Shown here: positions 16,284-38,154 of the stretch, in pieces
Position numbering within the stretch: the first letter of the stretch is position 1
Layout: each line of letters opens with the position of its first letter
Assembly (NCBI RefSeq): GCF_024700885.2
Contig: NZ_CP117016.1
Reading direction: 5' to 3' (one strand)
DNA length: 64,000 nucleotides
From: Escherichia coli
Lineage (GTDB): Bacteria; Pseudomonadota; Gammaproteobacteria; Enterobacterales; Enterobacteriaceae
Translations under genes and position numbers: made by a program
The notes under the pieces: model-generated
Databases searched by the model: none
What the model was told of the DNA's origin: nothing
What the model saw: the letters and a program-made list of their open reading frames with translations, nothing else

Positions 16284-16285
16284 GG

Positions 16286-16684: not shown

Positions 16685-16693
16685 ATTTATATT

Positions 16694-17146
16694 ATGAATA
16701 ACATACAAATAAGAAACTATCAGCCTGGCGATTTTCAGCAACTATGCGCTATTTTCCTTAGAGCGGTTACGATGACCGCCAGTCAGCATTATTCACCACA
16801 ACAAATTGCCGCCTGGGCGCAGATTGACGAATCTCGCTGGAAGGAGAAACTCGCGAAATCACAAGTATGGGTTGCGATCATTAATGCACAACCGGTTGGT
16901 TTTATTTCCCGCATTGAACACTATATCGATATGTTATTTGTTGACCCTGAATACACCCGCCGTGGGGTTGCCAGCGCTTTGTTAAAACCTTTGATTAAGT
17001 CTGAATCCGAACTTACGGTGGACGCAAGCATAACCGCAAAACCCTTTTTTGAACGTTATGGTTTTCAGACAGTTAAGCAGCAGCGCGTTGAATGCAGGGG
17101 AGCGTGGTTTACTAATTTTTCTATGCGATATAAACCGCAACATTAA
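16694..17146 (+). CDS. yafP: GNAT-family N-acetyltransferase
   Basis: 150 aa; last gene of the dinB-yafNOP operon; GNAT motif region (RRGVASALL). Confidence 0.85.
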   Translation: MNNIQIRNYQPGDFQQLCAIFLRAVTMTASQHYSPQQIAAWAQIDESRWKEKLAKSQVWVAIINAQPVGFISRIEHYIDMLFVDPEYTRRGVASALLKPLIKSESELTVDASITAKPFFERYGFQTVKQQRVECRGAWFTNFSMRYKPQH

Positions 17147-17378
17147 ATTCAGCTTGCAATGAAAATAACACCCGCCTGGTATGTGCGCGTTTTCTTATTC
17201 CACAAACTGCAAGGAGGTAAATCATGACAAATCCTTTATCAATGACTCTTTGCAGACCTTTCCAGGATTAATTCTTTTTTCTTGCCCTGGATTCGTCTGC
17301 CATTTCCTGATTTTTATATTTATATACTCTAAATAATTCGAGTCGCAGTACATGCAACTTGAAGTATGACGAGTATAA

Positions 17379-17645
17379 ATGGGATGGTACATGGGCAAAT
17401 CTATTCGTCCCTTATCCGATGCGGTATTTACCATCGCATCTGATGGCCTGTGGATCGAGAGTTTAGCGATCCAACAATTACACACCACGGCAAATTTACC
17501 CAACATGCAGCGCGTAGTAGGGATGCCAGATTTACACCCCGGACGCGGCTACCCGATTGGCGCAGCGTTCTTCTCCGCAGGCCGTTTTTACCCGGCAAGA
17601 CGTCGCGGTAACGGTGCTGGAAACAGAAACGGGCCGCTACTCTGA
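17379..17645 (+). pseudogene. ykfJ: RtcB-like RNA ligase fragment (frameshifted/truncated)
   Basis: Only about 90 aa of RtcB-like N-terminal sequence (...[16 protein letters not shown]), continuing in another frame (17557..17811). Confidence 0.6.
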
Positions 17646-17687
17646 CACGCTGCGTTCGGCGCTGATTTCTCTGGATGGCGATAACGC

Positions 17688-17945
17688 ATGGGCATTAAGC
17701 GAAAGTTGGTGCGGCACTATTCAGTGGATTTGTCCGAGTCCGTATCGGCCTCATCATGGGCGCAAAAACTGGTTTCTGGGCATGCTAACAAGCGGCTGGC
17801 GCGATTGCTGATTGCCTGGAAGCTGGAACAACAGCAACAGGAAAATAGCGCGGCGCTGAAATCGCAGTGGCGAATGTTCCATCATCAAATTGAACGTGGC
17901 AACCCGCGACGGACATTTACAGGGATGGCTTTTATCGAAGGATAA
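17688..17945 (+). pseudogene. prfH: peptide chain release factor homologue fragment
   Basis: 85-aa C-terminal fragment in a third frame, adjacent to the rtcB-like remnant. Confidence 0.55.
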
Positions 17946-18001
17946 TGAAGGATGAAACTGCCGGAAGGCGATTAAACGCCATCCGGCAGCAAATCAAATA
18001 A

Positions 18002-19459: not shown

Positions 19460-19719
19460 GTTAAGTCTCCTTGTCGATCACCCGCAAAACAGTATTGCAG
19501 GTCACAGGGTTAGCAGAAAATGTTGTCAACACAAGACAGGCTTGCGAGATATGTTTGAGAATACCACTTTATCCCGCGTCAGGGAGAGGCAGTGCGTAAA
19601 AAGACGCGGACTCATGTGAAATACTGGTTTTTAGTGCGCCAGATCTCTATAATCTCGCGCAACCTATTTTCCCCTCGAACACTTTTTAAGCCGTAGATAA
19701 ACAGGCTGGGACACTTCAC

Positions 19720-20178
19720 ATGAGCGAAAAATACATCGTCACCTGGGACATGTTGCAGATCCATGCACGTAAACTCGCAAGCCGACTGATGCCTTCTGAA
19801 CAATGGAAAGGCATTATTGCCGTAAGCCGTGGCGGTCTGGTACCGGGTGCGTTACTGGCGCGTGAACTGGGTATTCGTCATGTCGATACCGTTTGTATTT
19901 CCAGCTACGATCACGACAACCAGCGCGAGCTTAAAGTGCTGAAACGTGCAGAAGGCGATGGCGAAGGCTTCATCGTTATTGATGACCTGGTGGATACCGG
20001 TGGTACTGCGGTTGCGATTCGTGAAATGTATCCAAAAGCGCACTTTGTCACCATCTTCGCAAAACCGGCCGGTCGCCCGCTGGTTGATGATTATGTTGTT
20101 GATATCCCGCAAGATACCTGGATCGAACAGCCGTGGGATATGGGCGTCGTATTCGTCCCGCCAATCTCCGGTCGCTAA
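19720..20178 (+). CDS. gpt: xanthine-guanine phosphoribosyltransferase
   Basis: 152 aa starting [23 protein letters not shown] with PRTase motif [11 protein letters not shown]. Confidence 0.95.
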
Positions 20179-20269
20179 TCTTTTCAACGCCTGGCACTGC
20201 CGGGCGTTGTTCTTTTTAACTTCAGGCAGGTTACAATAGTTTCCAGTAAGTATTCTGGAGGCTGCATCC

Positions 20270-21514
20270 ATGACACAGGCAAACCTGAGCGAAACCCTGT
20301 TCAAACCCCGCTTTAAACATCCTGAAACCTCGACGCTAGTTCGCCGCTTTAATCACGGCGCACAACCGCCTGTGCAGTCGGCCCTTGATGGTAAAACCAT
20401 CCCTCACTGGTATCGCATGATTAACCGTCTGATGTGGATCTGGCGCGGCATTGACCCACGTGAAATCCTCGACGTCCAGGCACGTATTGTGATGAGCGAT
20501 GCCGAACGTACCGACGATGATTTATACGATACGGTGATTGGCTACCGCGGCGGCAACTGGATTTATGAGTGGGCTACCCAGGCGATGGTGTGGCAACAAA
20601 AAGCCTGTGCGGAAGAAGATCCGCAACTCAGTGGTCGTCACTGGCTGCATGCGGCTACGTTGTACAACATTGCCGCCTATCCTCATCTGAAAGGAGATGA
20701 CCTGGCCGAGCAAGCGCAGGCTTTGTCAAACCGCGCCTATGAAGAGGCCGCCCAGCGTCTGCCGGGCACCATGCGGCAGATGGAGTTTACCGTACCCGGC
20801 GGTGCGCCCATCACCGGCTTTTTGCATATGCCGAAAGGGGATGGCCCGTTCCCGACAGTATTAATGTGTGGTGGTCTGGATGCGATGCAGACGGACTATT
20901 ACAGCCTGTATGAACGTTATTTTGCGCCGCGCGGCATTGCGATGCTGACTATTGATATGCCGTCGGTGGGCTTTTCTTCAAAATGGAAGCTCACCCAGGA
21001 CTCCAGCCTGTTGCATCAGCACGTCTTAAAGGCGCTGCCTAACGTACCGTGGGTAGATCACACTCGCGTCGCGGCCTTTGGTTTCCGTTTCGGCGCTAAC
21101 GTTGCCGTACGTCTGGCATACCTTGAATCGCCGCGTCTGAAAGCGGTTGCCTGTCTTGGTCCGGTAGTTCATACCCTGTTGAGTGATTTTAAGTGCCAGC
21201 AACAGGTGCCGGAAATGTATCTTGACGTTCTGGCGAGTCGTTTGGGGATGCATGATGCTTCCGACGAAGCGTTGCGCGTGGAGCTGAATCGCTATTCATT
21301 AAAAGTGCAAGGATTGCTGGGACGTCGCTGCCCAACGCCAATGTTATCAGGCTACTGGAAGAACGATCCGTTCAGCCCGGAAGAGGACTCACGCTTAATC
21401 ACCTCATCATCTGCTGACGGTAAATTATTAGAGATCCCATTTAACCCAGTGTATCGGAATTTTGACAAAGGTCTTCAGGAAATCACCGACTGGATCGAAA
21501 AACGATTGTGTTAA
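20270..21514 (+). CDS. frsA: fermentation/respiration switch protein (alpha/beta hydrolase esterase)
   Basis: 414 aa; position between gpt and crl; alpha/beta-hydrolase core. Confidence 0.9.
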
Positions 21515-21973
<459 letters not shown>

Positions 21974-22011
21974 GTGAAATGTGCCGGATGCATCACATCC
22001 GGCAATATCCA

Positions 22012-23067
22012 TTAAAACTGATAGGTCATGCCAACCGCGACAATATCATCATTATTGATGTTCAGCTTATTATCGCTATCCAGTTGGTTTATTTTATAAT
22101 CAACAAATGCCGACATATTTTTGTTGAAATAATACGTAGCACCAACATCGATATAATTGACCAGATCTTCATCACCGATGCCTTCAATATCTTTCCCTTT
22201 CGATAAGACATAACCCAGCGACGGACGTAGACCAAAGTCAAACTGGTATTGGGCGACCGCTTCAAAGTTCTGTGTCTTATTGGCAAAGCCGCCAGTTATT
22301 GGCGTCATTTTGCGTGTTTCAGAATAGAAAGTTGCCAGATAAATATTATTGGCATCGTATTTCAGACCTGTTGCCCATGCTTCTGCACGCTTGCCTGTGC
22401 CACGGCTTTGCAGGTTCTGCTCGTTGGTGCGATCAGAGTTGGTATAGGCTCCACTGATGGCGAAATCGCTGCCACCAAAGTCATATGTCAATGACGTGCC
22501 GAAGCCATCGCCGTTTTGCTTTTTAACGTCGCGGTTTTCGTTTTTCCCTTGATATTGCAGGGTTAAGTTCAGACCATCGATAACGCCGAAGAAGTCGGTG
22601 TTCCTATACGTCGCCAGACCGCTGGCACGTTTGGTCATAAAGTTGTCGGTCTGTGCGGAGGAGTCGCCACCAAATTCCGGGAACATATCGGTCCAGGCTT
22701 CCACGTCATACAGCGCGCCCAGGTTACGACCATAATCGAAAGAACCCAAATCTTTATATTTCAACCCGGCAAAAGCGAGACGTGTTTTTTGCTGTGCAGT
22801 ATCACTCTCTGCTTTATTACCGGCAAACTCTGCTTCCCAGCGACCATAACCGGTCAATTGATCGTTAATTTGTGTTTCGCCTTTAAAACCAAAACGGATA
22901 TAACTCTGGTCGCCATCTTTACTGTCATTATCACTCATATAATGCATGGCTTTAACTTTGCCATAGACATCCAGTTTATTACCGTCTTTGTTATATATTT
23001 CTGCGGCCTGTACGGATGCAGATGCCACAATGCCCATCACCACTAATGCCAGAGTGCTCTTTTTCAT
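22012..23067 (-). CDS. phoE: phosphate-starvation outer-membrane porin PhoE
   Basis: ORF 22012..23073; start trimmed to [22 protein letters not shown]-terminal ...VGMTYQF beta-barrel signature. Confidence 0.93.
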
Positions 23068-23144
23068 TTTCATTCCTGATTTTAATTAACGCGCGAATAT
23101 TCAGCGGGAGAGTCCCGTTGAAAACAGGAAAGTTTTTAACCTGA

Positions 23145-23166
23145 GATTGTTAAAGATATATTACAG
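23145..23166 (-). promoter_or_regulatory. Pho box (PhoB binding site) in the phoE promoter
   Basis: Minus-strand reading CTGTAATATATCTTTAACAATC matches the tandem 7-bp CTGTAAT/CTTTAAC-type PhoB repeats about 80-100 bp upstream of phoE. Confidence 0.6.
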
Positions 23167-23354
23167 ATTAATAATATTCTTAAAATGTGGTAATTTATTA
23201 AATCTGTAATAAAAGCGTAAACAACTGCCGCTACGCTTGCTGATCCCGCGCAACAAAACGCCATGCTTTGCTCGCAGATGGTTGGCAACCGACGACAGTC
23301 CTGCTAAAACGTTCGTTTGATATCATTTTTCCTAAAATTGAATGGCAGAGAATC

Positions 23355-24458
23355 ATGAGTGACAGCCAGACGCTGGTGGTAAAACTCGGCACCAGTGTGC
23401 TAACAGGCGGATCGCGCCGTCTGAACCGTGCCCATATCGTTGAACTTGTTCGCCAGTGCGCGCAGTTACATGCCGCCGGGCATCGGATTGTTATTGTGAC
23501 GTCGGGCGCGATCGCCGCCGGACGTGAGCACCTGGGTTACCCGGAACTGCCAGCGACTATCGCCTCGAAACAACTGCTGGCGGCGGTAGGGCAGAGTCGA
23601 CTGATTCAACTGTGGGAACAGCTGTTTTCTATTTATGGCATTCACGTCGGGCAAATGCTGCTGACCCGTGCTGATATGGAAGACCGTGAACGCTTCCTGA
23701 ACGCCCGCGACACCCTGCGTGCGTTGCTCGATAACAATATCGTTCCGGTAATCAATGAGAACGATGCTGTCGCTACTGCAGAGATTAAGGTCGGCGATAA
23801 CGACAATCTTTCTGCGCTGGCGGCGATTCTGGCGGGTGCCGATAAACTGTTGCTGCTGACCGATCAAAAAGGTTTGTATACCGCTGACCCGCGCAGCAAT
23901 CCGCAGGCAGAACTGATTAAAGATGTTTACGGCATTGATGACGCACTGCGCGCGATTGCTGGCGACAGCGTTTCAGGCCTCGGAACTGGCGGCATGAGTA
24001 CCAAATTGCAGGCCGCAGACGTGGCTTGCCGTGCGGGTATCGACACCATTATTGCCGCGGGCAGCAAGCCGGGCGTTATTGGTGATGTGATGGAAGGCAT
24101 TTCCGTCGGTACGCTGTTCCATGCCCAGGCGACTCCGCTTGAAAACCGTAAACGCTGGATTTTCGGTGCACCACCTGCGGGTGAAATCACGGTAGATGAA
24201 GGGGCAACCGCCGCCATTCTTGAACGCGGCAGCTCCCTGTTGCCGAAAGGCATTAAGAGCGTAACTGGCAATTTCTCGCGTGGTGAAGTCATCCGCATTT
24301 GCAACCTCGAAGGTCGCGATATCGCCCACGGCGTCAGTCGTTACAACAGCGATGCATTACGCCGCATTGCCGGACACCACTCGCAAGAAATTGATGCAAT
24401 ACTGGGATATGAATATGGCCCGGTTGCCGTTCACCGTGATGACATGATTACCCGTTAA
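23355..24458 (+). CDS. proB: glutamate 5-kinase
   Basis: ORF 23268..24458; start trimmed to [19 protein letters not shown] (367 aa). Confidence 0.95.
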
Positions 24459-24469
24459 GGAGCAGGCTG

Positions 24470-25723
24470 ATGCTGGAACAAATGGGCATTGCCGCGAAGC
24501 AAGCCTCGTATAAATTAGCGCAACTCTCCAGCCGCGAAAAAAATCGCGTGCTGGAAAAAATCGCCGATGAACTGGAAGCACAGAGCGAAATCATCCTCAA
24601 CGCTAACGCCCAGGATGTTGCTGACGCGCGTGCCAATGGCCTTAGCGAAGCGATGATTGACCGTCTGGCACTGACGCCCGCACGGCTGAAAGGCATTGCC
24701 GATGATGTGCGCCAGGTGTGCAACCTCGCCGATCCGGTGGGGCAGGTAATCGATGGTGGCGTGCTGGACAGTGGCCTGCGTCTGGAGCGCCGTCGCGTGC
24801 CGCTGGGTGTGATTGGCGTGATTTATGAAGCGCGGCCGAACGTGACGGTTGATGTCGCTTCGCTGTGCCTGAAAACCGGTAACGCAGTGATCCTGCGTGG
24901 TGGCAAAGAAACCTGTCGCACTAACGCTGCAACGGTGGCGGTGATTCAGGACGCCCTGAAATCCTGCGATTTACCGGCAGGCGCAGTACAAGCGATTGAT
25001 AATCCTGACCGCGCGCTGGTCAGTGAAATGCTGCGTATGGATAAATACATCGACATGCTGATCCCGCGTGGTGGCGCTGGCCTGCATAAACTGTGCCGCG
25101 AACAGTCGACGATCCCGGTGATCACAGGTGGTATAGGCGTATGCCATATTTATGTTGATGAAAGTGCAGAGATCGCTGAAGCCCTGAAAGTAATCGTCAA
25201 CGCGAAAACCCAGCGTCCGAGCACATGTAATACGGTTGAAACGTTGCTGGTGAATAAAAACATCGCCGATAGCTTCCTGCCTGTGTTAAGCAAACAGATG
25301 GCTGAAAGCGGTGTGACGTTACACGCCGATGCTACCGCACTGACGCAATTGCAGGCAGGTCCCGCGAAGGTGGTTGCTGTTAAAGCTGAAGAGTATGACG
25401 ATGAGTTTCTGTCATTAGATTTGAACGTCAAAATCGTCAGCGATCTTGACGATGCCATCGCCCATATTCGTGAACACGGCACACAACACTCCGATGCGAT
25501 CCTGACCCGCGATATGCGCAACGCCCAGCGTTTTGTTAATGAAGTAGATTCATCCGCTGTTTACGTTAACGCCTCTACGCGTTTTACCGACGGCGGCCAG
25601 TTTGGACTGGGCGCGGAAGTGGCGGTAAGCACACAAAAACTCCACGCGCGTGGCCCAATGGGGCTGGAAGCGCTGACCACTTACAAGTGGATCGGCATTG
25701 GTGATTACACCATTCGTGCGTAA
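24470..25723 (+). CDS. proA: gamma-glutamyl phosphate reductase
   Basis: 417 aa aldehyde dehydrogenase-family protein directly after proB. Confidence 0.95.
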
Positions 25724-25837: not shown

Positions 25838-25913
25838 GCCGATATAGCTCAGTTGGTAGAGCAGCGCATTCGTAATGCGAAGGTCGTAGGTTCGACTCCT
25901 ATTATCGGCACCA
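25838..25913 (+). tRNA. thrW: tRNA-Thr (anticodon CGU)
   Basis: GCCGATATAGCTCAGTTGGTAGAGCAGCGCATTCGTAATGCGAAGGTCGTAGGTTCGACTCCTATTATCGGCACCA; cloverleaf with CGT anticodon; integration site for the downstream island. Confidence 0.95.
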
Positions 25914-26077: not shown

Positions 26078-27268
26078 ATGATGCTGAATGCCCGCAAGGT
26101 TGAAGCTGCGAAAGGAAAAGAGAAGAGCTACAAGCTGTTTGATGGAGGTGGCCTATATCTTCAGGTCGAACCTAATGGCTCGCGTTACTGGCGTATGAAA
26201 TACCGTTTTGCTGGTAAAGAGAAACGATTGTCCTTTGGTGTTTATCCAACAGTCACACTTGCTGATGCCAGACAAAAACGAGAAGACGCGAAGAAACTAC
26301 TCGCAGCAGGTGAAGATCCCGGCGAAGTCAAAAAAGCCAAAAAGCAGGCTTTAAATGCAGCGATTGAGACACTTAACCCATTCAGAGAAGTGGCGTTAGA
26401 GTGGCACAAAATGAAATCACCCAAATGGTCTGAGGGCTATGCTTCCGACATCATTGAGGCATTCGAGAAAGACATTTTCCCGCATATTGGGCACAGACCT
26501 ATAGCTGATATTCAGCCCCTTGAACTGCTTGAAGTTCTGAGATTGATAGAAGCTCGAGGCGCTATGGAGAAAGCGAAGAAAGTCCGTCAGCGATGCGGTG
26601 AAGTTTTTCGCTATGCCATCGTAACGGGTAGGGCAATCTACAATCCGGCACCGGATCTTGCCAGTGCGATGCAAGGACATGAAGCAGTCCACTATCCATT
26701 CCTCAAAGCCAACGAACTACCGGAGTTCTTTAATGCCCTTAATTCTTATTCAGGAAGTCCAATTGTATTGTTGGGGGCGCATTTACTTATCCTGACAGGT
26801 CTACGAACTGGAGAACTACGAGCAGGTGAGTGGCGAGAGGTGGATTTTGATAATGCGGTGTGGGAGATCCCAAAAGAACGTATGAAAATGCGTAGGAGCC
26901 ATATTGTCCCGTTGTCAAAACAAGCATTATCCCATCTCAAAAGTTTGAAAGAACTAACTGGGAACTACCCGCTGATGTTCCCTGGACGCAACGATCCTAG
27001 CAAATTTATGAGTGAAGCAAGCATTAATCAGGTGTTTAAACGTATTGGATATGCAGGGCGTGTTACGGGGCATGGTTTCAGGCATACGATGAGTACAATC
27101 CTACATGAGAAAGGATTTAACAGCGCTTGGATTGAAACCCAGCTTGCTCATTCGGACAAAAACTCTATTCGTGGAATTTATAACCATGCCCAATATCTCG
27201 AAGGGAGAAGAGAAATGATGCAATGGTATGCTAATTATTTATCTGAGCTAATTGGTACTCATAAATGA
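26078..27268 (+). CDS. P4-type tyrosine integrase (tRNA-targeting)
   Basis: ORF 26009..27268; likely start at MMLNARK; C-terminal catalytic region with HGFRHT and conserved Tyr (RGIYNHAQYLEGRREMMQWY); directly beside thrW. Confidence 0.85.
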   Translation: MMLNARKVEAAKGKEKSYKLFDGGGLYLQVEPNGSRYWRMKYRFAGKEKRLSFGVYPTVTLADARQKREDAKKLLAAGEDPGEVKKAKKQALNAAIETLNPFREVALEWHKMKSPKWSEGYASDIIEAFEKDIFPHIGHRPIADIQPLELLEVLRLIEARGAMEKAKKVRQRCGEVFRYAIVTGRAIYNPAPDLASAMQGHEAVHYPFLKANELPEFFNALNSYSGSPIVLLGAHLLILTGLRTGELRAGEWREVDFDNAVWEIPKERMKMRRSHIVPLSKQALSHLKSLKELTGNYPLMFPGRNDPSKFMSEASINQVFKRIGYAGRVTGHGFRHTMSTILHEKGFNSAWIETQLAHSDKNSIRGIYNHAQYLEGRREMMQWYANYLSELIGTHK

Positions 27269-29687: not shown

Positions 29688-30067
29688 ACCAGCCGCAGGT
29701 TTCCATTTTCCCGGCAGAAATGACCACCGCGCTTTACCGGCGGGCTATTGCTTCAGCATGGCGGCAGAAAATGCTGAACGAAACTGGCAGTGATCAGTAT
29801 GGTCCGCACAGCCTGACGGTGGAGCGTATTGAAATGGCCATTGCGCTGCATATCGAGTGCGTACTGATTAACGAGTACGGCGAAGTGCAGGGCGCCGCTG
29901 CCGCGCTGGCACTGCTGACTGACATGCTGGAGCCGTCACTGCTGACCGCGCCGCCGGTACTGACCGCGCGCGGCTGTGAAGTGATGGCGGAGATGTACCG
30001 CACGCTTCCGGCGGCCTTTGATGACTTCTGCAGTACCGGTGTGACGTTGTATGAGGGGGAAGTATGA
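29684..30067 (+). CDS. hypothetical protein (island early region, precedes primase)
   Basis: 127-aa ORF, 4-nt overlaps with both neighbours. Confidence 0.4.
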   Translation: MNQPQVSIFPAEMTTALYRRAIASAWRQKMLNETGSDQYGPHSLTVERIEMAIALHIECVLINEYGEVQGAAAALALLTDMLEPSLLTAPPVLTARGCEVMAEMYRTLPAAFDDFCSTGVTLYEGEV

Positions 30068-32736
30068 CAATACAGACGGTTACGCAGATTTCAGCCGCCG
30101 CACGGGGGAAATGGCCCGTTATTCTGCAGATGCTGCGTATTGATGTACCTGAAAACGGCAGGCACGGTCCCTGCCCGAAATGTGGGGGCAAGGATCGTTT
30201 TCGCCTTGATGACCTTGACGGGCGCGGGACGTGGATCTGCAGCCAGTGTGGCAATGGTGACGGTCTGGATCTGGTTAAGCTCGTAACCGGTTACAGCGTC
30301 AGAAAGGCTGCGCAGGAGGTGGCGCAGGTGCTTAATGTGCCGAATATGCAGGAACTGCCTGTTAAGCCTGCCAGACAAAAAGCCCCTAAACGCGACATGG
30401 GTCTTACCGTGGCGGCGCTGATGAAAGAGAGCCACACGGGAGAAAGCGCCTATCTGACAGGAAAAGGGTTCGCCGGATACCCGGCCTCTCTGACCGGAAG
30501 CGTGCAGCATATCAGCGGTAAGGATTTCCCTGCCGGTTCCCTGCTGTTACCACTCACGACCAACACCGGAGCCGTGACCGGTGCACAGCTTATCGCCCCG
30601 ACGGGTGAAAAAAGCATACTGCCCGGCAGCACGATGAAAGGCGCGTTTGTGTCGCTCAGCCCGTTACCGTCTGAACCACCGGTACAGGTGGTGATTACCG
30701 AAGGTTACGCTACGGCGCTGACGGTAAGTCAGCTCACTGCCGGATGCGTAGTGGCTGCCATATCTGCGGGCAACCTGCCCAATGTGGCGCAGTCGCTGCG
30801 GGCACGCTGGCCTGAGGTAAAAATTATCATCGCCGGTGATAACGATTTTCAGGACGGAGATGAGAATCCCGGCAGAGCCTTTGCTGAACGGGCGGCAAAA
30901 GCTGTTGGCGGCTGGATGACGCTGCCACCAGGAGAGATTAAGGCTGACTGGAATGACTTTCATCGGGAGCACGGTATTACCCGTGCCCGTGAAGCCTTTC
31001 GCAACGGTCTGGTACTGTGCGGGGAAGGCCGCACGCAACTGCCGCACGGGTTCCGTCTTACCCAGGAATATCTCTGGTATGAAAAGCAGGTACAGCGCAA
31101 CGGTGAGACGGAGATCCAGAACGTCAAAATATGCAGCCCGCTGCGCGTGACGGCAATCACCTGCGATGCCGATGGCGGTAACTTCGGACGACTGCTGGAA
31201 TGGGAAGATACGTGGGGTGAGTGTCGCCGCTGGGCGATGCCGATGGAAATGCTGAGCGGCAGTGGTGAGGAACTGCGCCGGGTACTGCTGGTTAACGGGC
31301 TGTCTTATATCAGCACCACCGGTGAGGCACGCGCACGCCTGATGGAATATATCTCACTGTGTAAACCGGAACGCCGCGTGACCTGCGTCAGTCGTACTGG
31401 CTGGCATGGTCAGGTTTACGTCCTGCAGGATGAGGTCAGCGGTGAAGGTGCAGAGGGTGTCATTCTCCAGACCACTTCCGTGCAGGGGCGTGATTTCCGC
31501 GTGTCGGGCACAACAGAGGAATGGCGGGAGCATGTATCCCGCTACTGTACCGGCAACTCCCGCGTGGCATTTGCTGTCAGCCTGGCCTTTGCTGCACCAC
31601 TGTTACGGCTGGTTGGTATGGACGGCGGCGGCTACCACCTCAAAGGGGAATCGACAGACGGTAAGACCACCACCATGAAAGCGGCAACCTCCGTCTGCGG
31701 CGGGCCTGACTACTGGCAGACATGGCGGGCCACCGGCAACGCGCTGGAGGGATGCGCCAGCCGCCGCAACGATGCCGCCATGATGCTTGATGAGATCCGG
31801 GAAGTTGACGGACGCGAGGCAGGCAATATCGCCTACATGCTGGCAAACGGTCAGGGCAAGGGCCGTGCCGGTACGGACGGTGAGCTGCGTACCCGTAAGC
31901 AGTGGCGCCTGTTGTTCTTTTCAACTGGCGAGTTGTCTCTGACCGAACATGCGGCAAAGGCCGGTGAGCGTACTTTTGCCGGGATGGAAGTCAGGATGAT
32001 CCAGATCCCCAGCGATTCCGGGAAGTTTGGCGTTTTTGAGGAGCTGCACGGCTTCGACAGCGGCAAGGCTCTGGCAGAGCATCTTGAATGGGCCACGTCC
32101 TGCTACTACGGTTCGCCGTTCCGGGAGTGGCTGAAAGCACTGACCGCTGATCTTAACGGACTAACGGCACAGGCAAAATCGCTGATGAAGGAATATGCTG
32201 CCGCCCTGACTCCGAAAGATGCAGGCAATCAGGTGGGCCGGGCTGTGAACCGCTTTGCTCTGGTGGCGATGGCAGGTGAACTGGCAACCCGTCTGGGTAT
32301 CACCGGCTGGCCTGAGGGTGAAGCACTGCGGGCAACCCGCGTCTGCCTGAACGCATGGCTGAAAGATCGCGGGCACACCGCCAATCAGGAAGATATCGCC
32401 GCACTGGAGCAGGTTCGCAGTTTCTTTACCGCGAATCAGTACAGCCGCTTTGCAGACTGGTATGACGAGCGCAACCGCCCCGGCAATATGGTGGGCTGGC
32501 GCAGGGTGGAGAAAGGCAGTACCGCGCAGGGCACGGAAGCTGTCACTACGTTCTATGTCATGCCGTCCGGCTGGAAAGAAATCTGCAGGGGATTTGACCC
32601 GCGCAAGGTGGCGCGTCTGTGCGCAGATCGTGGATACCTGCTGCCCTCCACAGATGGCAAACTCCAGACAACCATTCGCCCGCCAGAGATGAATCCCCGC
32701 AGGCTCTATGTCTTCAACAGCGAGGTGCCTGGTTAA
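30064..32736 (+). CDS. P4 alpha-type primase/helicase (zinc-binding primase domain, Toprim, P-loop NTPase)
   Basis: 890 aa; N-terminal Cys4 zinc motif (CPKCGGKDRF...CSQCGNGDG), Toprim-like acidic region, Walker A GESTDGKTT. Confidence 0.88.
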   Translation: MTIQTVTQISAAARGKWPVILQMLRIDVPENGRHGPCPKCGGKDRFRLDDLDGRGTWICSQCGNGDGLDLVKLVTGYSVRKAAQEVAQVLNVPNMQELPVKPARQKAPKRDMGLTVAALMKESHTGESAYLTGKGFAGYPASLTGSVQHISGKDFPAGSLLLPLTTNTGAVTGAQLIAPTGEKSILPGSTMKGAFVSLSPLPSEPPVQVVITEGYATALTVSQLTAGCVVAAISAGNLPNVAQSLRARWPEVKIIIAGDNDFQDGDENPGRAFAERAAKAVGGWMTLPPGEIKADWNDFHREHGITRAREAFRNGLVLCGEGRTQLPHGFRLTQEYLWYEKQVQRNGETEIQNVKICSPLRVTAITCDADGGNFGRLLEWEDTWGECRRWAMPMEMLSGSGEELRRVLLVNGLSYISTTGEARARLMEYISLCKPERRVTCVSRTGWHGQVYVLQDEVSGEGAEGVILQTTSVQGRDFRVSGTTEEWREHVSRYCTGNSRVAFAVSLAFAAPLLRLVGMDGGGYHLKGESTDGKTTTMKAATSVCGGPDYWQTWRATGNALEGCASRRNDAAMMLDEIREVDGREAGNIAYMLANGQGKGRAGTDGELRTRKQWRLLFFSTGELSLTEHAAKAGERTFAGMEVRMIQIPSDSGKFGVFEELHGFDSGKALAEHLEWATSCYYGSPFREWLKALTADLNGLTAQAKSLMKEYAAALTPKDAGNQVGRAVNRFALVAMAGELATRLGITGWPEGEALRATRVCLNAWLKDRGHTANQEDIAALEQVRSFFTANQYSRFADWYDERNRPGNMVGWRRVEKGSTAQGTEAVTTFYVMPSGWKEICRGFDPRKVARLCADRGYLLPSTDGKLQTTIRPPEMNPRRLYVFNSEVPG

Positions 32737-33136: not shown

Positions 33137-33880
33137 ATGAACAATACCGCAGTAAATAACAACCTTTCCACTTTTCCGGCTGTAACGCAGCGGGCACTGG
33201 AAACCATGAACACAGCCAGAAACGCATGGCTTGAAGCACGTCGTCAGCAGAAAGCGGCAGCGGATAATATTGCGACAATCCGCCAGCGTCGCGCTGAAAT
33301 GGAAGCCACGACGAACACACTGAATGAGGAGTGGCGCACGCTGTTTCGTGAAAGTCAGGGCGTGATCTCAAAGGAAATGAAAAAACTGCGCACGGAAATT
33401 GCGCTGGGACGAGAAACGCTTGAGGATTTTGATGAGCTGCTGGCGGCTCAGGAAAGCGAAAATGCACTTTTGCCGCAGAAAGCTGCAGAATTAGCCGGAA
33501 AGTATATCCACGCGCATAACATTCTTGTGGATATTCGCGCAAAACAAATCTGGGAGGATTTTATGCAGTCGCATGGAAAAGTGCTTATTCAGACGCTGAG
33601 CCTGCTTAAATCCACAATGGGCCGGGAAGCCAGTGCCGTTGTGGGTGTGGTGAATTCAGTTAATGACCCGGACACAGTGCTGAAAGACTTTATTCATAAA
33701 TATATCACCAGACCGGCTCTGGCTAACGATGCGATGCCTGAGCAGGACCCGGTGTTTAAACTGGCGGGAGTTGCCCCGGATTATGCGGCGCGTCTGGATT
33801 TCAGTAATCAACTCTCTCCGGCAGCTATGCATAAAATTAAGGTTCGTCAGGAACTTGCTGAGAAGGAGAAAGCAGTATGA
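33137..33880 (+). CDS. Sid-like capsid size-determination (external scaffold) protein
   Basis: 247-aa helix-rich protein; first gene of the late operon downstream of the TGT-N12-ACA dyads and immediately upstream of the Psu-like gene; assignment by context and size. Confidence 0.45.
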   Translation: MNNTAVNNNLSTFPAVTQRALETMNTARNAWLEARRQQKAAADNIATIRQRRAEMEATTNTLNEEWRTLFRESQGVISKEMKKLRTEIALGRETLEDFDELLAAQESENALLPQKAAELAGKYIHAHNILVDIRAKQIWEDFMQSHGKVLIQTLSLLKSTMGREASAVVGVVNSVNDPDTVLKDFIHKYITRPALANDAMPEQDPVFKLAGVAPDYAARLDFSNQLSPAAMHKIKVRQELAEKEKAV

Positions 33881-34428
33881 CGGCCCGAGGCACGCCTGAC
33901 CAGGCACTTACCAGTTTTCGGAATGCCCGTATTCTGTGGGCCGGACATAATGAGAGCCGAAAAGCCGTTGAACAACAGATAACATCTCTCCTCGCTGCCA
34001 CAGAAAAACCAGCAGATTATGCCCGACAGCTCGAATTACTGCGGGAACGTCTGGATGTGCTGAAATGGCAAATTAACTGTGCTGCGCGCGAATGCATTTA
34101 CTCGCAGCATTTACTGATGGAGGCCTGCACAGAAGCCGCTCTCAGCAATTTTATGCAGGCGAATGGGGCAGCCCTGACATCTGCACTGGCTCCGTTCCTG
34201 AAGGGGCGCGGAGGGGTTGACGTTGCGTCCCGTATATTACGCAGTGCTCTGGTTCGCCAGCTGGCAATAACACCGCCTGAATTTGCCGGGGATTATCGTG
34301 AGATCCTGGATGAATCCGGTTTGATGCTTGACCCCGGGATGATTCGTGATTGCCAGGGTTCTTACACCCCGGCACAACATCTGCGTTTTCAGCAACGCCT
34401 GAATGACATTAACGATATACAGGAGTGA
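33877..34428 (+). CDS. Psu-like polarity-suppression / capsid-decoration protein
   Basis: 183 aa; motifs recalled from P4 Psu (LKWQINCAAR, HG.ALA.ALAP, TPAQHLRFQQR); 4-nt overlap with the sid-like gene. Confidence 0.65.
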   Translation: MTARGTPDQALTSFRNARILWAGHNESRKAVEQQITSLLAATEKPADYARQLELLRERLDVLKWQINCAARECIYSQHLLMEACTEAALSNFMQANGAALTSALAPFLKGRGGVDVASRILRSALVRQLAITPPEFAGDYREILDESGLMLDPGMIRDCQGSYTPAQHLRFQQRLNDINDIQE

Positions 34429-34433
34429 TATTA

Positions 34434-34706
34434 ATGGCACTTAAATGTCCGGAATGCGGTACAGTTGCACACGCCAGAACAGCAGCCTATGAAGCTCCGT
34501 CAGTTAAACGCTCGTGGTATCAGTGCCAGAATCTGGAATGTTCCTGCACATTTACGGCACTGGAGAGTGTGGATAAGATAATCATGAAACCCCGGCGCAA
34601 TGAACAGGAACCAGACAAATCACAAACCCCGGTAAAACAACAGCAAACGCTCAATCGCTATGGCTCCGCGTCAAAACTGTCAAGCCGTCAGCAGATTCCT
34701 GTCTGA
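34434..34706 (+). CDS. Ogr/Delta-family zinc-finger late transcriptional activator
   Basis: ORF 34425..34706; start trimmed to MALKCPECG with AGGAG upstream; Cys4 pattern CPECG...CQNLEC typical of Ogr/Delta. Confidence 0.75.
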   Translation: MALKCPECGTVAHARTAAYEAPSVKRSWYQCQNLECSCTFTALESVDKIIMKPRRNEQEPDKSQTPVKQQQTLNRYGSASKLSSRQQIPV

Positions 34707-34727
34707 TTAGAAAAAAAATGCCCACGT

Positions 34728-34753
34728 AATCCCGGTCGAGTACTGGGATTTTT
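34728..34753 (+). terminator. rho-independent terminator-like hairpin after the late operon
   Basis: aatccc-ggtcgagtact-gggatt stem-loop followed by a T run. Confidence 0.4.
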
Positions 34754-35289
34754 AACACCTTACCCCTGGCTGGCCTGAGAGCGCATGAGTGCATGTCTAT
34801 GGCGCATGAAAACGCATGAGTCTCATGCACCATTTTTGACGCGAAAGCCCTTGTGTGGTGGCTTCTGAGACGATTAATGAGGTGCATGAAAACCAGTCTG
34901 TTAAGTGAAGCGGGAAGGCGTGCGGGGCTGCGCACGTAGCAGGGTTAAATGGTCAATTCTGGCGCAGCTCACGACATTAAGTCAGCCTCAATAGATGTAC
35001 GTGTTGGTAGGGGTAATTCGCTACTTTTTTGTATCCTAAATTGTATGGTTTGATGCTGATCGTTTCTTCACCGCACCTGCAGAGATATCAATTCAATGTG
35101 GACAAAAATGAGTCTGGCTCTTTCCGTATCACTAGAATTGCCAGTATTGTTAGGGATGATGCCCATATCATACGGAGGGAGCCAGTGGGGGCGATTGCGC
35201 GTGGAAAGTGCTTTGGATTTATTCATCGGTTTTATGATTCTACATAAGGAGCAAAGGTACTTGTATCGTATGAAAAAAAATAGTATAGA

Positions 35290-35520
35290 TATAATGCTCC
35301 TTACGCGTTATGGCATAGTTATATGCTAGTCGGGCGATTAGCCAGACTCGAACTTATTGAACGGTATTAGGGTTGCGCTTGGTGTGCCTCTGGATTGCAC
35401 TCCATGCTGTCGCGCAATCCAGAGGCACACCAAGCGCTTCCTTTAGGTAAGTGAGTAAAAACAGCACCTTCTTCGATTTATGATGAAGGTGCTGCAATCG
35501 TAACGTTTTTTGTATACACG
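35290..35520 (+). ncRNA. candidate retron msr-msd non-coding RNA
   Basis: Non-coding stretch directly upstream of the effector-RT pair with a perfect 24-bp stem (35375-35398 / 35414-35437, 15-nt loop) and a second 10-bp stem (35462-35471 / 35485-35494); exact ends and a1/a2 repeats not resolved. Confidence 0.55.
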
Positions 35521-35529
35521 GATAGTATA

Positions 35530-36498
35530 GTGGCTGAGACATACGAAGATAAAGTTGCTAATCATGTTTCAGAGTGGGAAATGGAAAATTTCCGTGTATG
35601 TTATGATGATCAGGTTATTTTCTTATGTGGTGCGGAAGTACTTCCTCAAGGAAGTGTTCAGACTTCAATGAGAGGGCATTTTTATCACTATTGCCTGAAT
35701 AAAAATAAAGATATAGCTGATAAAATAATTCTTGCCGAAAACTTCAAAAAATATCTTCAAAATAATCATTATCCAGACTTAATAACTTTTGAGCATGATG
35801 TTGCAAGTATATCTAGTTTAGTTGTTATTTTCTTGGAAAGCAGTGGTTCAATTGCTGAGTTAGGTGTTTTCTGTAATATTAGTGATGTCAATAAAAAATT
35901 ATTGATATTTGTTCCATCAGATGAAGTTGAAGGTGACAAGAAAGAGTCTTTCATTTACTTAGGGCCTTTATTGTTTTTAAAAGAAAAGGTCAATGAAAAA
36001 GCATTTAAGATTTATCCAAAACCCACTAATGGTTCTGATTACTCCGAGCATTTAGAGATTATGGCTGATGACTTGGCTGAACTATTACCTAGAAGTGGTA
36101 AGTTTGAAAGCTTCGATCCTGACAATTTAGGGCATATAGCTTTTCTTATATGCAGAATTGTGCATTTAGTAATGCCTATTAAGCTAAAGGAAATATTAAA
36201 TTGTTTAAAAATAATAGGTATCAATAAATATACTCTGACTGAGGTTGAAAGAATTTTGTTTTTATTGGAAACATTGGGTTTTATAAATATTTATCCGTAT
36301 GGCGATTTAAAATACTATTATTCAATGCAAGCCAGGCAAAATCTTAAATTAGGGAAAAATAAAACCGGATTCACAATCGATGAGGCTGGTATTTTTACTG
36401 ATATTAGTGTTTTTATCAATGACAATAAATTATGTAGTGATAAAAAAAGACGGCTGGTTTTGAAAGGCATTAAGGAGAAGCATAATGGACATAATTAA
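35530..36498 (+). CDS. retron effector candidate: nucleoside 2-deoxyribosyltransferase-like (NDT-like) protein with C-terminal putative DNA-binding region
   Basis: 322 aa (GTG start in the ORF track); Rossmann-like N-terminus with ESSGSIAELG motif resembling the NDT-family catalytic Glu region; overlaps the RT gene by 14 nt; AT-rich. Confidence 0.6.
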   Translation: MAETYEDKVANHVSEWEMENFRVCYDDQVIFLCGAEVLPQGSVQTSMRGHFYHYCLNKNKDIADKIILAENFKKYLQNNHYPDLITFEHDVASISSLVVIFLESSGSIAELGVFCNISDVNKKLLIFVPSDEVEGDKKESFIYLGPLLFLKEKVNEKAFKIYPKPTNGSDYSEHLEIMADDLAELLPRSGKFESFDPDNLGHIAFLICRIVHLVMPIKLKEILNCLKIIGINKYTLTEVERILFLLETLGFINIYPYGDLKYYYSMQARQNLKLGKNKTGFTIDEAGIFTDISVFINDNKLCSDKKRRLVLKGIKEKHNGHN

Positions 36499-37417
36499 AA
36501 AAATCGCAGATGAAACTCTAATGCCGGTATCAAAAGTATCTGCTTTTATATTTACAGCCCCATATAGATATAAAGTATATCCCATCCCCAAAAGGAATGG
36601 TGGGTTTAGGGAGATTGCTCAACCGTCAAGGGCATTAAAGTTTATGCAAAGGATTGTTATTGCTGAACTAGAGAAAGTACTTAAGGTTCATGAAAACGCA
36701 TATGCTTATGTCAAAGGACGTAGTATAAAAGATAATGTGGAAAAGCATCAAAGAAACTCTTATATTTTGAAAGTTGATTTCTGCGACTTTTTTAATAGCA
36801 TAAACCCTTACGACCTTGAGTTATGTTTAAAAAACAATGGGTTAGACTCATTGTTAAGCTCACAAGAATTATTGAATAAACTTTTTTTCTATAAGAAAAG
36901 TAAAAGAGGTGCTTTATCAATGAGCATCGGGGCACCTAGTTCTCCATTTTTGTCAAATGCGATTATGTATAAGTTTGATTCAGTCATTAGTGATATGTGT
37001 TCAAATAAAAATATTACTTATACAAGATATGCTGATGATCTTACATTTTCTACTAATGAAAAAGGTATTTTGTATGAATTCATACATGAAATAGATAAAG
37101 TTCTTGAGGAGATAGATAGTCCTAAATTAAAACTAAATGATAAGAAAACCATATTTGCATCTAAAAAATGCAATCGTCATATAACAGGAATTGTTATTAA
37201 TAACGAAGAAAAACTTTCAATTGGTAGAGATAAAAAACGTTACTTAAGTAGTTTAATTCATAAATTCTCGCTTAATGCACTTAATGAGGAAGGAGTTGAA
37301 CATTTAAAAGGGTATTTGGCGTATGTAAATAAAATTGAACCTTCATTCATTAGCAGAATGAAAAGGAAATATGGAGTCGAAGTTGTCAACTCCATAATCA
37401 CATTTAATCCATTATAA
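36485..37417 (+). CDS. retron-type reverse transcriptase
   Basis: 310 aa; RT motifs YRYKVYPIPKRNGGFREIAQPSRALK, VDFCDFFNSI, GAPSSPFLSNAIM, TRYADDLTFS (YADD active site), HITGIVI; distant resemblance to the Ec86 RT. Confidence 0.9.
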   Translation: MDIIKKIADETLMPVSKVSAFIFTAPYRYKVYPIPKRNGGFREIAQPSRALKFMQRIVIAELEKVLKVHENAYAYVKGRSIKDNVEKHQRNSYILKVDFCDFFNSINPYDLELCLKNNGLDSLLSSQELLNKLFFYKKSKRGALSMSIGAPSSPFLSNAIMYKFDSVISDMCSNKNITYTRYADDLTFSTNEKGILYEFIHEIDKVLEEIDSPKLKLNDKKTIFASKKCNRHITGIVINNEEKLSIGRDKKRYLSSLIHKFSLNALNEEGVEHLKGYLAYVNKIEPSFISRMKRKYGVEVVNSIITFNPL

Positions 37418-37894
37418 ATGTGAACTTATTATATTTATAATGGTTGTGCTTTTTTCTTGTACCTTAGGGGTGTAAAAGAATGTCATCATGAAGATAATTA
37501 AAAAATGAATGGCAATAAGAGTAATAGGTAACATTTTTTCAATATCACTTAAATGGCGATGCCTTTTTTGTGTAATAACTTCCTCTTCTCTTTTGAAAGG
37601 AGTTATACCTATCTTGACCTCCATCTCCTGAATTACTGTAAACTTAGCAGCATTAATTCTTTTATAGGAAGTAATTAGATTTATCCAATAGATATTAATT
37701 ACGACTCCAGCGAGAGAGATTAAGATTACCCAAATAGGCTGTATTGTTGGCTTTAAAGAAAAATATCCAACAAGCGGTAAAATAGAAGAGTTTAAGGCTA
37801 ATAAAAATGTATTTGACTTAAGTCTTCGATCACTTATTCTATCCGCCATCTCAACGCATGTTTTATATATTTCTATGACTTTATCATCCGTCAC
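37412..37894 (-). CDS. small three-TM membrane protein of unknown function (candidate defence/abortive-infection effector)
   Basis: 160 aa with three predicted hydrophobic helices; AT-rich; convergent with the RT gene, its stop codon overlapping the RT's last codon. Confidence 0.55.
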   Translation of the reverse strand: MTDDKVIEIYKTCVEMADRISDRRLKSNTFLLALNSSILPLVGYFSLKPTIQPIWVILISLAGVVINIYWINLITSYKRINAAKFTVIQEMEVKIGITPFKREEEVITQKRHRHLSDIEKMLPITLIAIHFLIIFMMTFFYTPKVQEKSTTIINIISSHL

Positions 37895-38137: not shown

Positions 38138-38154
38138 TCCTATTATCGCACCAT
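38138..38154 (+). repeat. attR: degenerate direct repeat of the thrW 3' end (island right boundary)
   Basis: tcctattatcg-caccat matches the tRNA 3' end tcctattatcggcaccat with one missing G. Confidence 0.5.

What the first reader, a model, noticed from the sequence alone, without database searches (positions are those of the whole stretch)
34780..34940. Repeat-rich non-coding region after the late operon with a possible divergent cos-like site
The region contains repeated GCATGA-containing motifs (gcgcatgagtgcatg, ggcgcatgaaaacgcatgagtctcatgcacc, gaggtgcatgaaaacc) and a GC-rich segment ggcgtgcggggctgcgcac that partially resembles (about 12 of 19 positions) the P2/P4 cohesive-end sequence as I recall it. 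If this is the packaging site, it marks the boundary between backbone and cargo.
Basis: inference. Interest (0 to 1): 0.3.

Follow-up and report, generated by a model that had tools for sequence, protein, structure and literature searches.

The report
Packaging (cos) site of P4-like satellite
The repeat-rich stretch is the DNA-packaging (cos) site of a P4-like phage satellite, sitting where the conserved satellite backbone ends and its swappable anti-phage cargo (a retron) begins; this arrangement is already described for the family, so the finding is correct but mostly ordinary.

Summary
Window ~25.9-38.15 kb is a 12.25-kb P4-like satellite integrated at tRNA-Thr. It carries int, alpha primase, sid, psu, delta and an St85-type retron. 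The flagged region lies 210 nt after the delta stop, where P4 has its cos (164 nt after psu). A profile of 77 cos regions from P2-like helper phages hits the 64-kb window once, at 34781-34960 (E=4.6e-18). The GCATGA/TGCATG repeats and the GGTGCATGAAAACC box are shared with helper cos sites. Five GCATGA copies fall within 107 nt, against at most 3 in simulations. The 12/19 match to the P2/P4 cohesive end is real but not above chance alone (86 such sites in the window). Among 29 distinct related satellites, conservation runs high through 34936 and then collapses, which marks the backbone/cargo boundary. Rousset et al. 2022 already described this layout, a defence hotspot next to cos in P4-like satellites, including retrons. 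One possibly new detail is that this lineage has +5 nt right of the core and -5 nt inside it. This preserves box-to-left-flank spacing but leaves the nick positions, and a 14- versus 19-nt overhang, undetermined. Packaging was not tested.

The parts
25838..25913 (+). tRNA-Thr(cgt). Its 3' 17 nt (25897-25913, TCCTATTATCGGCACCA) form the attL core of the satellite.
   Evidence: ARAGORN; sequence and repeat search
26078..27268 (+). Satellite integrase (tyrosine recombinase)
   Evidence: RefSeq annotation of the identical locus in NZ_CP083512.1, transferred by offset
30064..32736 (+). Alpha-type primase/helicase (TOPRIM + DUF927), 890 aa
   Evidence: ORF list; RefSeq annotation
33137..33880 (+). 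sid-like capsid-size determination gene (247 aa)
   Evidence: BLASTP to P4 Sid: 23% identity over 226 aa, E=2e-12. Annotated as 'phage capsid morphogenesis protein' in a homologous locus.
33877..34428 (+). psu (polarity suppression / capsid decoration), 183 aa
   Evidence: RefSeq annotation; 30% identity to P4 Psu in alignment A1
34434..34706 (+). delta, a single-domain Ogr/Delta zinc-finger late activator of 90 aa
   Evidence: BLASTP: 47% identity to P2 Ogr (E=7e-17) and 45% to the N-terminal half of P4 Delta
34728..34753 (+). Hairpin plus T-run, the likely intrinsic terminator of the sid-psu-delta operon
   Evidence: Inverted repeat I5; hairpin present in both the MFE and centroid RNA folds
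34781..34831 (.). Distal right-arm block of cos, carrying the GCATGA/TGCATG repeats (GCATGA at 34783, 34804, 34814 and 34823(-); GTGCATG at 34789). Inferred terminase-recognition (cosB-like) element. Positions 34814-34828 also form a terminator-like palindrome.
   Evidence: About 28/32 identical to the same block in P2-like helper cos regions. Motif cluster statistics. Terminator-like hit.
34879..34894 (.). Proximal box GAGGTGCATGAAAACC. It equals the helper box GGTGCATGAAAACC, P2 GGTGCATTAAAACC and P4 ACTGCATTAAAACC.
   Evidence: Alignments
34895..34916 (.). Spacer between box and core. It is 5 nt longer than in all standard cos sites (AAGTG|AAGCG tandem duplication) and includes the conserved GAAGCGGG at 34907-34914.
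   Evidence: Box-to-GGCG distance is 34 nt in 29/29 unique satellites of this lineage, against 29 nt in 125/125 unique standard sites. nhmmer places a 5-nt insertion here.
34917..34935 (.). G+C-rich cos core GGCGTGCGGGGCTGCGCAC (cohesive-end region). Relative to the helper core GGCGTGGCGGGGATACGAG|CGCGCGC it lacks 1+4 nt.
   Evidence: Nick positions are inferred, not determined.
34942..34968 (.). Short remnant of the native left flank of helper-phage cos (GGGTTAAATGGTCAATTCTGGCGCAGC). It is not conserved in most other satellites.
   Evidence: About 80% identity at the same offset to cargo-free helper loci L003, L049, L021, L077 and L062, where Q ends about 200 nt after the core in four of the five (L062: +1706). 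The score is reached by none of 500 shuffles for L003, L049 and L062 but falls within the shuffle range for L021 and L077. The BLAST hit to Yersinia phage MLG42 extends to 34966.
35296..35486 (+). Retron non-coding RNA: msr 35296-35365 and the msd hairpin region 35368-35486. First element of the cargo.
   Evidence: Rfam RF00170 msr at 53.4 bits (gathering score 52). STnc400 model at 53 bits, below its gathering score of 80.
35530..37417 (+). Retron St85-family effector (35530-36498) and reverse transcriptase (36485-37417)
   Evidence: ORFs; RefSeq product names at the identical locus
38138..38153 (+). attR core TCCTATTATCG-CACCA, a repeat of the tRNA-Thr 3' end with one G missing. This is the right end of the 12.25-kb satellite.

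Best explanation
Window 34781-34936, with a weak extension to about 34968, is the cos packaging site of a 12.25-kb P4-like satellite (phiR73-style 'retronphage') integrated at tRNA-Thr. After excision and circularisation, cos lies between the late operon (sid-psu-delta) and the accessory cargo. The terminase of a P2-like helper would recognise the right arm. That arm comprises the distal GCATGA/TGCATG block, the proximal GGTGCATGAAAACC box and AAGCGGG. The terminase would then make staggered nicks in the G+C-rich core starting near 34917 and package the 12-kb genome into Sid-downsized helper capsids. This step is inferred from P2/P4 biology. Only about 6 conserved nucleotides are needed left of the core, so everything beyond 34936 is free to vary. 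This makes cos the fixed edge of the defence-gene hotspot, occupied here by an St85-type retron. What is shown is homology, position, selective conservation and the location of the cargo boundary. What is inferred is terminase binding to the repeats, the cleavage positions and present-day packaging competence.
For: Element identity. RefSeq annotation of the 100%-identical locus lists int, an Icd-like protein, DUF5375, a TOPRIM/DUF927 primase, Psu, Ogr/Delta and the retron St85 effector and RT. Sid, Psu and Delta are homologous to their P4/P2 counterparts. attL and attR sit at tRNA-Thr, giving a 12.25-kb element of P4-capsid size.

Position. The core starts 210 nt after the delta stop; P4 cos is 164 nt after the psu stop. 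In satellite loci with this cos type, the Delta-gene homology where detected (30 of 37 loci) ends a constant ~210 nt before the core (that query was read one base out of frame, so it reports DNA-level homology).

Homology. The region matches P2-like phages between gpA/DinI and portal Q, which is the cos locus. An nhmmer profile of 77 helper cos regions gives one hit in the window, E=4.6e-18. Blocks shared with P2 and P4 are visible in direct alignment.

Selection. The non-coding cos segment is more conserved (median 92%) than the adjacent delta CDS (87%) or psu (61%). Sequence beyond the core drops to background, 57%. Per-column conservation collapses after 34936 (coordinates corrected by -2).

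Boundary. In 841-892 of 5426 complete E. coli genomes the homology ends at 34931-34944, with different cargo beyond: a retron, ABC-three-component genes or a portal gene.

Literature. P2 and P4 share a core cos signal, and defence hotspots including retrons lie directly next to cos in both P4-like satellites and P2-like phages (PMC9122126). A 55-bp cos region with 19-nt ends is conserved in P2-like phages (PMC3931495). phiR73 is a retron-carrying P4-like element mobilised by P2 (PMC6868368).
Against: No packaging, cleavage or transduction data exist for this sequence. The core is not a standard 19-mer between conserved flanks: it is 5 nt shorter than in every P2-type and helper-type site examined, although total spacing is compensated. 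A cleavage defect therefore cannot be excluded. The 12/19 identity to the P2/P4 ends is at chance level on its own. No IMG/VR contig showed circular overlap or termini at cos. Only 92 of 841 E. coli genomes with this satellite cos also hold a prophage with the most similar helper cos, against about 198 expected if independent. This comparison is uncorrected for phylogeny. Satellites can also wait for an infecting helper, so the evidence is weak.
Confidence: 0.85

Rival explanations
1. The region is an inactive relic of a cos site. The sequence descends from a cos, but the 5-nt loss in the core (plus the 5-nt duplication beside it) abolished cleavage, so the element is a cryptic, vertically inherited island.
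For: The core is 5 nt shorter than in 125/125 unique standard sites. There is no evidence of excised or packaged forms. The most similar helper cos co-occurs with it less often than expected.
Against: The variant is fixed in 29/29 unique satellites that differ in cargo and have Delta, Psu or primase as divergent as 64%, 26% and 36% identity. The cos segment is nevertheless the best-conserved part of the neighbourhood. The +5 and -5 changes cancel exactly, keeping box-to-left-flank spacing at the helper value of 47 nt, which looks like maintained function. All hijacking genes in the window are intact ORFs.
Confidence: 0.1
2. The region is only transcriptional punctuation. The GCATGA palindromes act as terminators or operator sites closing the sid-psu-delta operon or insulating the retron, with no role in packaging.
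For: The palindrome at 34814-34828 followed by a T-run scores as terminator-like. A larger hairpin at 34801-34831 appears in the RNA fold. In P4 the TGCATG repeats also form a hairpin plus T-run after psu.
Against: A separate hairpin/T-run already follows delta at 34728-34753. The fold of the region is not unusually stable (z=-1.05). The same repeat block is conserved in helper phages where it does not form that hairpin and where a different GC-rich terminator lies between the blocks. Termination does not explain the box, the AAGCGGG motif or the GGCG core homology. A dual role is possible and is compatible with the main explanation.
Confidence: 0.03
3. The region is a retron-associated or integration-associated site, such as a retron promoter/a1-a2 region or an attP arm.
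For: It lies upstream of the retron, and short repeats are typical of recombinase arm sites.
Against: The retron msr starts 360 nt downstream at 35296. Satellites with entirely different cargo keep the region. The att cores are at 25897-25913 and 38138-38153. No sigma-70-like promoter was found in 34600-35600.
Confidence: 0.02

Closest known systems
cos of satellite phage P4 (NC_001609, junction 11624/1)
   Same: It sits just after the late operon (164 nt after psu, against 210 nt after delta here). It has TGCAT(G) repeats in the right arm, a TGCATTAAAACC box, AAGCGGGC and then a GGCG... core. Accessory genes (gop/beta/cII) start right after it.
   Different: The P4 core is the exact P2 19-mer GGCGAGGCGGGGAAAGCAC, with box-to-core 29 nt. 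Here the core is GGCGTGCGGGGCTGCGCAC, with box-to-core 34 nt and 5 nt missing before the GCGC(R)C flank. Gene order is sid-delta-psu in P4 and sid-psu-delta here. Psu is only 30% identical.
cos of Wadgaonvirus/Elveevirus-type P2-like phages (Escherichia phage 500465-1 NC_049342, Yersinia phage vB_YpM_MLG42, prophage in E. coli WP5-W18-ESBL-11)
   Same: This is the closest sequence relative. The distal block AGTGCATGTCTATGSCGCATGA..CGCATGA is about 28/32 identical and the box GGTGCATGAAAACCA is identical. AAGCGGGCAGGCGTG and the GCGCGC flank match, and so does the native left flank GGGTGAAATGG...GGCGCA. A variable hotspot starts right after the GCGCGC flank in these phages as well.
   Different: The helper core is the 19-nt GGCGTGGCGGGGATACGAG, located between gpA/DinI and portal Q. 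The satellite has the +5/-5 register shift and lies after delta.
P4-like defence hotspot next to cos (Rousset et al. 2022, PMC9122126)
   Same: A variable anti-phage cargo, with retrons explicitly included, lies directly adjacent to cos in P4-like satellites. Conserved sequence on one side switches abruptly to variable sequence.
   Different: That study defined the locus as lying between psu and int. In this element int is at the opposite prophage end, next to tRNA-Thr, so the hotspot lies between cos and attR.
Retronphage phiR73 (retron Ec73) and retrons Ec67/Ec86 beside the cos of 186-like prophages
   Same: phiR73 is a retron carried by a P4-like element that P2 can mobilise, and Ec67/Ec86 are retrons inserted next to a cos site (PMC6868368).
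   Different: The retron family differs (St85-type, with msr-msd, effector and RT) and so does the integration site (tRNA-Thr rather than selC). The shared sid-psu-delta order is from my memory, not tested.
Lambda cos (cosN/cosB)
   Same: The functional logic is the same: a nicking core flanked on one side by terminase-binding repeats.
   Different: There is no sequence homology. Lambda has a 12-nt overhang. P2-family packaging uses circular monomers (established knowledge, not tested here).

Membership tests
P2/P4-family cos site | Sequence homology to the conserved cos region of P2-like phages (right-arm box, AAGCGGG, GGCG-core, GCGCGC flank) | tested here: met
   nhmmer profile of 77 helper cos regions gives a single window hit at 34781-34960, E=4.6e-18. 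BLAST hits fall on the cos loci of P2-like phages.
P2/P4-family cos site | A 19-nt G+C-rich cohesive-end segment between the conserved nick-flanking sequences | tested here: inconclusive
   A GGCG-initiated G+C-rich 19-mer exists (34917-34935; 12/19 to P2, at chance level alone). However, only 14 nt separate the conserved GGGCA|GGCG and |CGC(R)CGC flanks, against 19 in 125/125 unique standard sites. Total box-to-flank spacing is preserved.
P2/P4-family cos site | Position in a satellite: directly downstream of the late (sid/psu/delta) operon and upstream of accessory genes | tested here: met
   The core starts 210 nt after the delta stop. Where Delta-gene homology is detected (30 of 37 satellite loci) it ends a constant ~210 nt before the core; the query was out of frame, so this is DNA-level evidence. 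P4 has 164 nt after psu.
P2/P4-family cos site | Cleavage by helper terminase and helper-dependent packaging or transduction | not testable with these tools
No contig termini or circular overlaps at cos were found in IMG/VR loci.
P4-like satellite | Core gene set: integrase, alpha primase, sid, psu, delta (plus epsilon/alpA-region genes) in an element of about 10-13 kb | tested here: met
   RefSeq annotation. Homology of Sid (E=2e-12), Psu (30% identity) and Delta (E=4e-11) to P4. Element size is 12.25 kb between the att cores. An epsilon homologue was not specifically checked.
cos-adjacent defence hotspot of P4-like satellites (Rousset et al. 2022) | Conserved sequence up to cos, then unrelated cargo in different strains, with cargo including known defence systems | tested here: met
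   Homology ends at 34931-34944 across about 890 genomes. Per-column conservation collapses after 34936. Cargo examples are the St85 retron, ABC-three-component genes and a portal gene.
Retron (cargo) | msr-msd ncRNA plus a reverse transcriptase, with an effector | tested here: met
   Rfam msr at 53.4 bits, above the gathering score of 52. RefSeq lists a retron St85 family effector and RT.

The most novel reading that the evidence does not exclude
This widespread satellite lineage (about 16% of complete E. coli genomes) carries a re-registered cos. A 5-nt tandem duplication (AAGYG|AAGCG) sits right of the core, and it is exactly offset by loss of 5 nt inside the cohesive-end segment. The terminase box therefore stays 47 nt from the GCGCGC left flank, as in its helper, while the GGCG core is displaced by half a helical turn. 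If functional, this implies one of two things. Either P2-family terminase places its nicks by distance from flanking anchors rather than by the overhang sequence, or this lineage has a 14-nt overhang. In both cases the satellite's cohesive ends would differ from, and be unable to anneal with, the ends of its helper. That would bear on the proposed cos-end recombination route for hotspot exchange.
Probability: 0.3. Interest if true: 0.45.

Novelty: new member of a known kind. Interest (0 to 1): 0.25.

Why it matters
The site fixes where the mobilisable backbone of this satellite ends and its defence cargo begins. It also identifies the signal that would let a P2-like helper spread the retron between strains. 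That is useful for annotation, because RefSeq has no feature here, and for delimiting cargo in about 850-890 E. coli genomes. The concept itself (cos next to a defence hotspot, retrons riding on P4-like elements) is already published. The only potentially new point is the compensated 5-nt register shift of the core. If functional, it would give a natural experiment on how P2-family terminases choose their nick positions and on whether helper and satellite ends can cross-anneal.

Tried and rejected
Megablast of 34400-35400 against the phage collection found nothing. Only the 11-mer blastn mode revealed the helper cos homology.

I first read the zinc-finger ORF as P2 ogr and the locus as a P2 prophage end (attR). 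The psu, sid and alpha neighbours and the RefSeq annotation rejected this.

A direct-repeat search with 11-nt seeds did not find attL/attR. A targeted search with the tRNA 3' end did.

The 12/19 match was tested as stand-alone evidence and rejected, because 86 equal or better sites occur in the window.

I looked for circular overlaps or cos termini in IMG/VR satellite contigs to map the ends and found none.

L141 looked like a divergent satellite sharing the cos. Pfam showed a lambdoid remnant plus an IS with a stranded 388-nt cos fragment.

Ziermann & Calendar 1990 and Sun et al. 1991 were not held in the library. The minimal-cos limits and the phiR73 cos sequence therefore could not be checked.

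In one search my Delta query was one base out of frame. Its hits reflect DNA-level conservation, and the correct frame was used. Coordinates printed are 2 too high and were corrected.

Co-occurrence with P2-type helpers was not attempted, because P4-type satellites share the P2 core and would confound the count.

Full report
OBSERVATION. GCATGA occurs 40 times in the window on both strands, and five copies fall in 34783-34889. No cluster above 3 appeared in 300 Markov-1 simulations, and Poisson P is about 1e-8 per 110-nt window. The GC-rich 19-mer GGCGTGCGGGGCTGCGCAC (34917-34935) matches the P2/P4 cohesive end GGCGAGGCGGGGAAAGCAC at 12/19 positions, taking the reference from the ends of NC_001895 and NC_001609. 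That level is not above chance by itself, because 86 sites in the window reach it.

CONTEXT. The locus is 100% identical in about 20 complete E. coli genomes. In strain elppa4 RefSeq annotates, left to right:
- the end of a P22-like prophage
- an integrase
- an Icd-like protein
- DUF5375
- a TOPRIM/DUF927 primase
- a 247-aa protein
- Psu
- an Ogr/Delta-like zinc-finger protein
- the unannotated gap under study
- a retron St85-family effector and reverse transcriptase
- a small ORF, followed by host genes (lysR, pao, ecp)

The 247-aa protein is a Sid homologue (E=2e-12 to P4 Sid). Psu is 30% identical to P4 Psu. The 90-aa zinc finger is 47% identical to P2 Ogr and 45% to the first half of P4 Delta.

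A tRNA-Thr(cgt) lies at 25838-25913. Its 3' end TCCTATTATCGGCACCA recurs as TCCTATTATCG-CACCA at 38138-38153. This delimits a 12.25-kb element, which is P4-capsid size. The cargo contains a retron msr (Rfam 53.4 bits, above the gathering score) at 35296-35365, followed by the msd hairpin. The element is thus a P4-like satellite of the retronphage kind, and the flagged region is the gap between its late operon and its cargo.

HOMOLOGY TO COS. In P4 the cohesive ends lie 164 nt after the psu stop. Here the GGCG core begins 210 nt after the delta stop. Sensitive blastn of 34700-35030 against 50,697 phage records hit only P2-like phages (Peduoviridae). The hits fall between gpA/DinI and the portal gene Q, where P2-like phages have cos.

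Scanning IMG/VR with the 14-mer GTGCATGAAAACCA returned 120 stretches, most of them P2-like cos regions. These read ...AGTGCATGTCTATGCCGCATGAGATCGCATGA...(terminator hairpin)...GGTGCATGAAAACCACTACATAAAGCGGGCA|GGCGTGGCGGGGATACGAG|CGCGCGC, followed by unrelated sequence. A profile HMM built from 77 unique such regions finds exactly one hit in the 64-kb window, 34781-34960, E=4.6e-18.

The P2 and P4 junctions share the same architecture: TGCAT repeats, then a TGCATTAAAACC box, then AAGCGGGCG|GGCGAGGCGGGGAAAGCAC|YGCGCGC. TGCAT/ATGCA occurs 3-5 times per 182-nt right arm in all three classes, against 0.38 expected from the window background.

[quoted passage not shown] It also records that P2 and P4 share a core cos signal because P4 uses the P2 terminase (PMC9122126).

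CONTEXT SPECIFICITY AND SELECTION. In 37 loci with the satellite form of the site, wherever an upstream gene is detected it is a satellite gene (Delta in 30 loci, or Sid, Psu or the primase); two loci showed none. Where Delta-gene homology is detected it ends a constant ~210 nt before the core. In 81 loci with the helper form, the detected flanking genes are gpA upstream and Q/P downstream, apart from five loci with none detected and one with P upstream (the Delta query was out of frame, so this reports DNA-level homology).

Compared with the window, other satellites are a median 92% identical over the cos segment (-140..+20). The same figure is 87% over delta, 61% over psu and 57% (alignment background) beyond +20. 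Per-column conservation among 29 unique satellites is high through 34936 and then collapses (coordinates corrected by -2).

In complete E. coli genomes the region is present in 841 (megablast) to 892 (blastn) of 5426. Alignments end at 34931-34944. Beyond that point different strains carry another St85-type retron, ABC-three-component genes or a portal gene. It is also the layout described by Rousset et al. 2022, in which defence hotspots including retrons lie directly adjacent to cos in P4-like satellites and P2-like phages. In helper phages the variable region likewise begins immediately after CGCGCG(C). Cargo-free helpers have Q ending about 200 nt after the core. The window retains about 27 nt of that native left flank at the same offset, 34942-34968.

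MECHANISM. The shown facts are homology, position, selective conservation and the boundary. The inferred steps come from established P2/P4 biology. On helper late-gene expression, which Delta can trans-activate, the excised and replicated satellite circle is recognised by helper terminase through the right-arm repeats and box. It is nicked in the G+C-rich core and packaged into Sid-downsized capsids. The retron then lies at the left end of the linear genome.

I assign the GCATGA/TGCATG motifs to terminase recognition. They are the parts of the right arm that satellite and helper share almost base for base, while the spacer between them differs. One pair also forms a terminator-like palindrome (34814-34828), so a dual role is possible. 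The operon's main terminator is more likely the hairpin at 34728-34753.

WHAT IS UNUSUAL. In all 125 unique standard sites (50 P2/P4-type and 75 helper-type) the box-to-GGCG distance is 29 nt. In all 29 unique satellites of the window's lineage it is 34 nt, owing to an AAGYG|AAGCG tandem duplication. The distance from the box to the GCGCGC left-flank block is nevertheless 47 nt in both this lineage and its closest helpers. This is because 1+4 nt are missing inside the core.

Three nick registers are therefore possible:
- 14 nt (34917-30), if both nick-flanking sequences are followed
- 19 nt (34912-30), if distances from the anchors are kept

The G-rich repeats make all three align comparably to P2, so I could not resolve the question in silico. 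P4-type satellites do not show the shift.

HELPER ASSOCIATION. The helper-type cos is present in 1277 of 5426 genomes. The union with the satellite type is 2026 genomes. Both therefore occur together in about 92 genomes, against about 198 expected under independence. This count is uncorrected for phylogeny (many O157:H7 genomes carry the satellite), and a resident helper is not required for a satellite, so I treat it only as a caveat.

VERDICT. This is the cos site of a P4-like satellite and it marks the backbone/cargo boundary. The kind is well known, so interest is low. The compensated register shift is a modest, testable curiosity.

Noticed in passing
window ~14400-25490: A P22-like prophage end (gp10, three ejection/DNA-transfer proteins, SieA, Arc, tailspike, O-antigen acyltransferase) abuts tRNA-Thr on the side opposite the satellite. 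Two mobile elements therefore sit in tandem at thrW.
   Followed up: partly
L009:5284-6705, also L019, L147, L155, L174: psu-less P4-like satellites carry, immediately after their cos, a small ORF and a full-length portal (Q) gene on the minus strand. It is 88% identical to the Q of a Wadgaonvirus-type helper prophage (L010). This looks like helper left-end DNA captured at cos.
   Followed up: partly
L141:11484-11871: A 388-nt copy (98.7%) of window 34769-35156 (cos plus left flank) is stranded between lambdoid tail genes (K- and I-like) and an IS5-like transposase. It appears to be a rearrangement remnant.
   Followed up: yes
window 35368-35486: The Rfam model STnc400 (Salmonella sRNA) matches at 53 bits, below its gathering score of 80, directly after msr. 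It is evidently the msd hairpin of the St85-type retron rather than an independent sRNA.
   Followed up: no
L002:2600-2640 (Escherichia phage 500465-1, NC_049342): This helper phage has an 18-nt core GGCGTGCGGGGATACGAG, lacking the same G that is missing in the satellites. This is either a real variant or a sequencing error.
   Followed up: no
IMG/VR contigs 2718218453_000001 (L068/L069) and 2740892440_000004 (L087/L088): The satellite-type and helper-type cos sites occur on the same predicted prophage contig. Satellite and helper are therefore integrated close together in those genomes.
   Followed up: no
E. coli complete genomes: The satellite-type cos (841 genomes) and the most similar helper-type cos (1277 genomes) co-occur in only about 92 genomes, against about 198 expected if independent. 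This is uncorrected for phylogeny.
   Followed up: partly
window 37412-37894 (- strand): A 160-aa hypothetical ORF (WP_000128896.1 in RefSeq) lies between the retron RT and attR and is part of the cargo. Its function was not examined.
   Followed up: no
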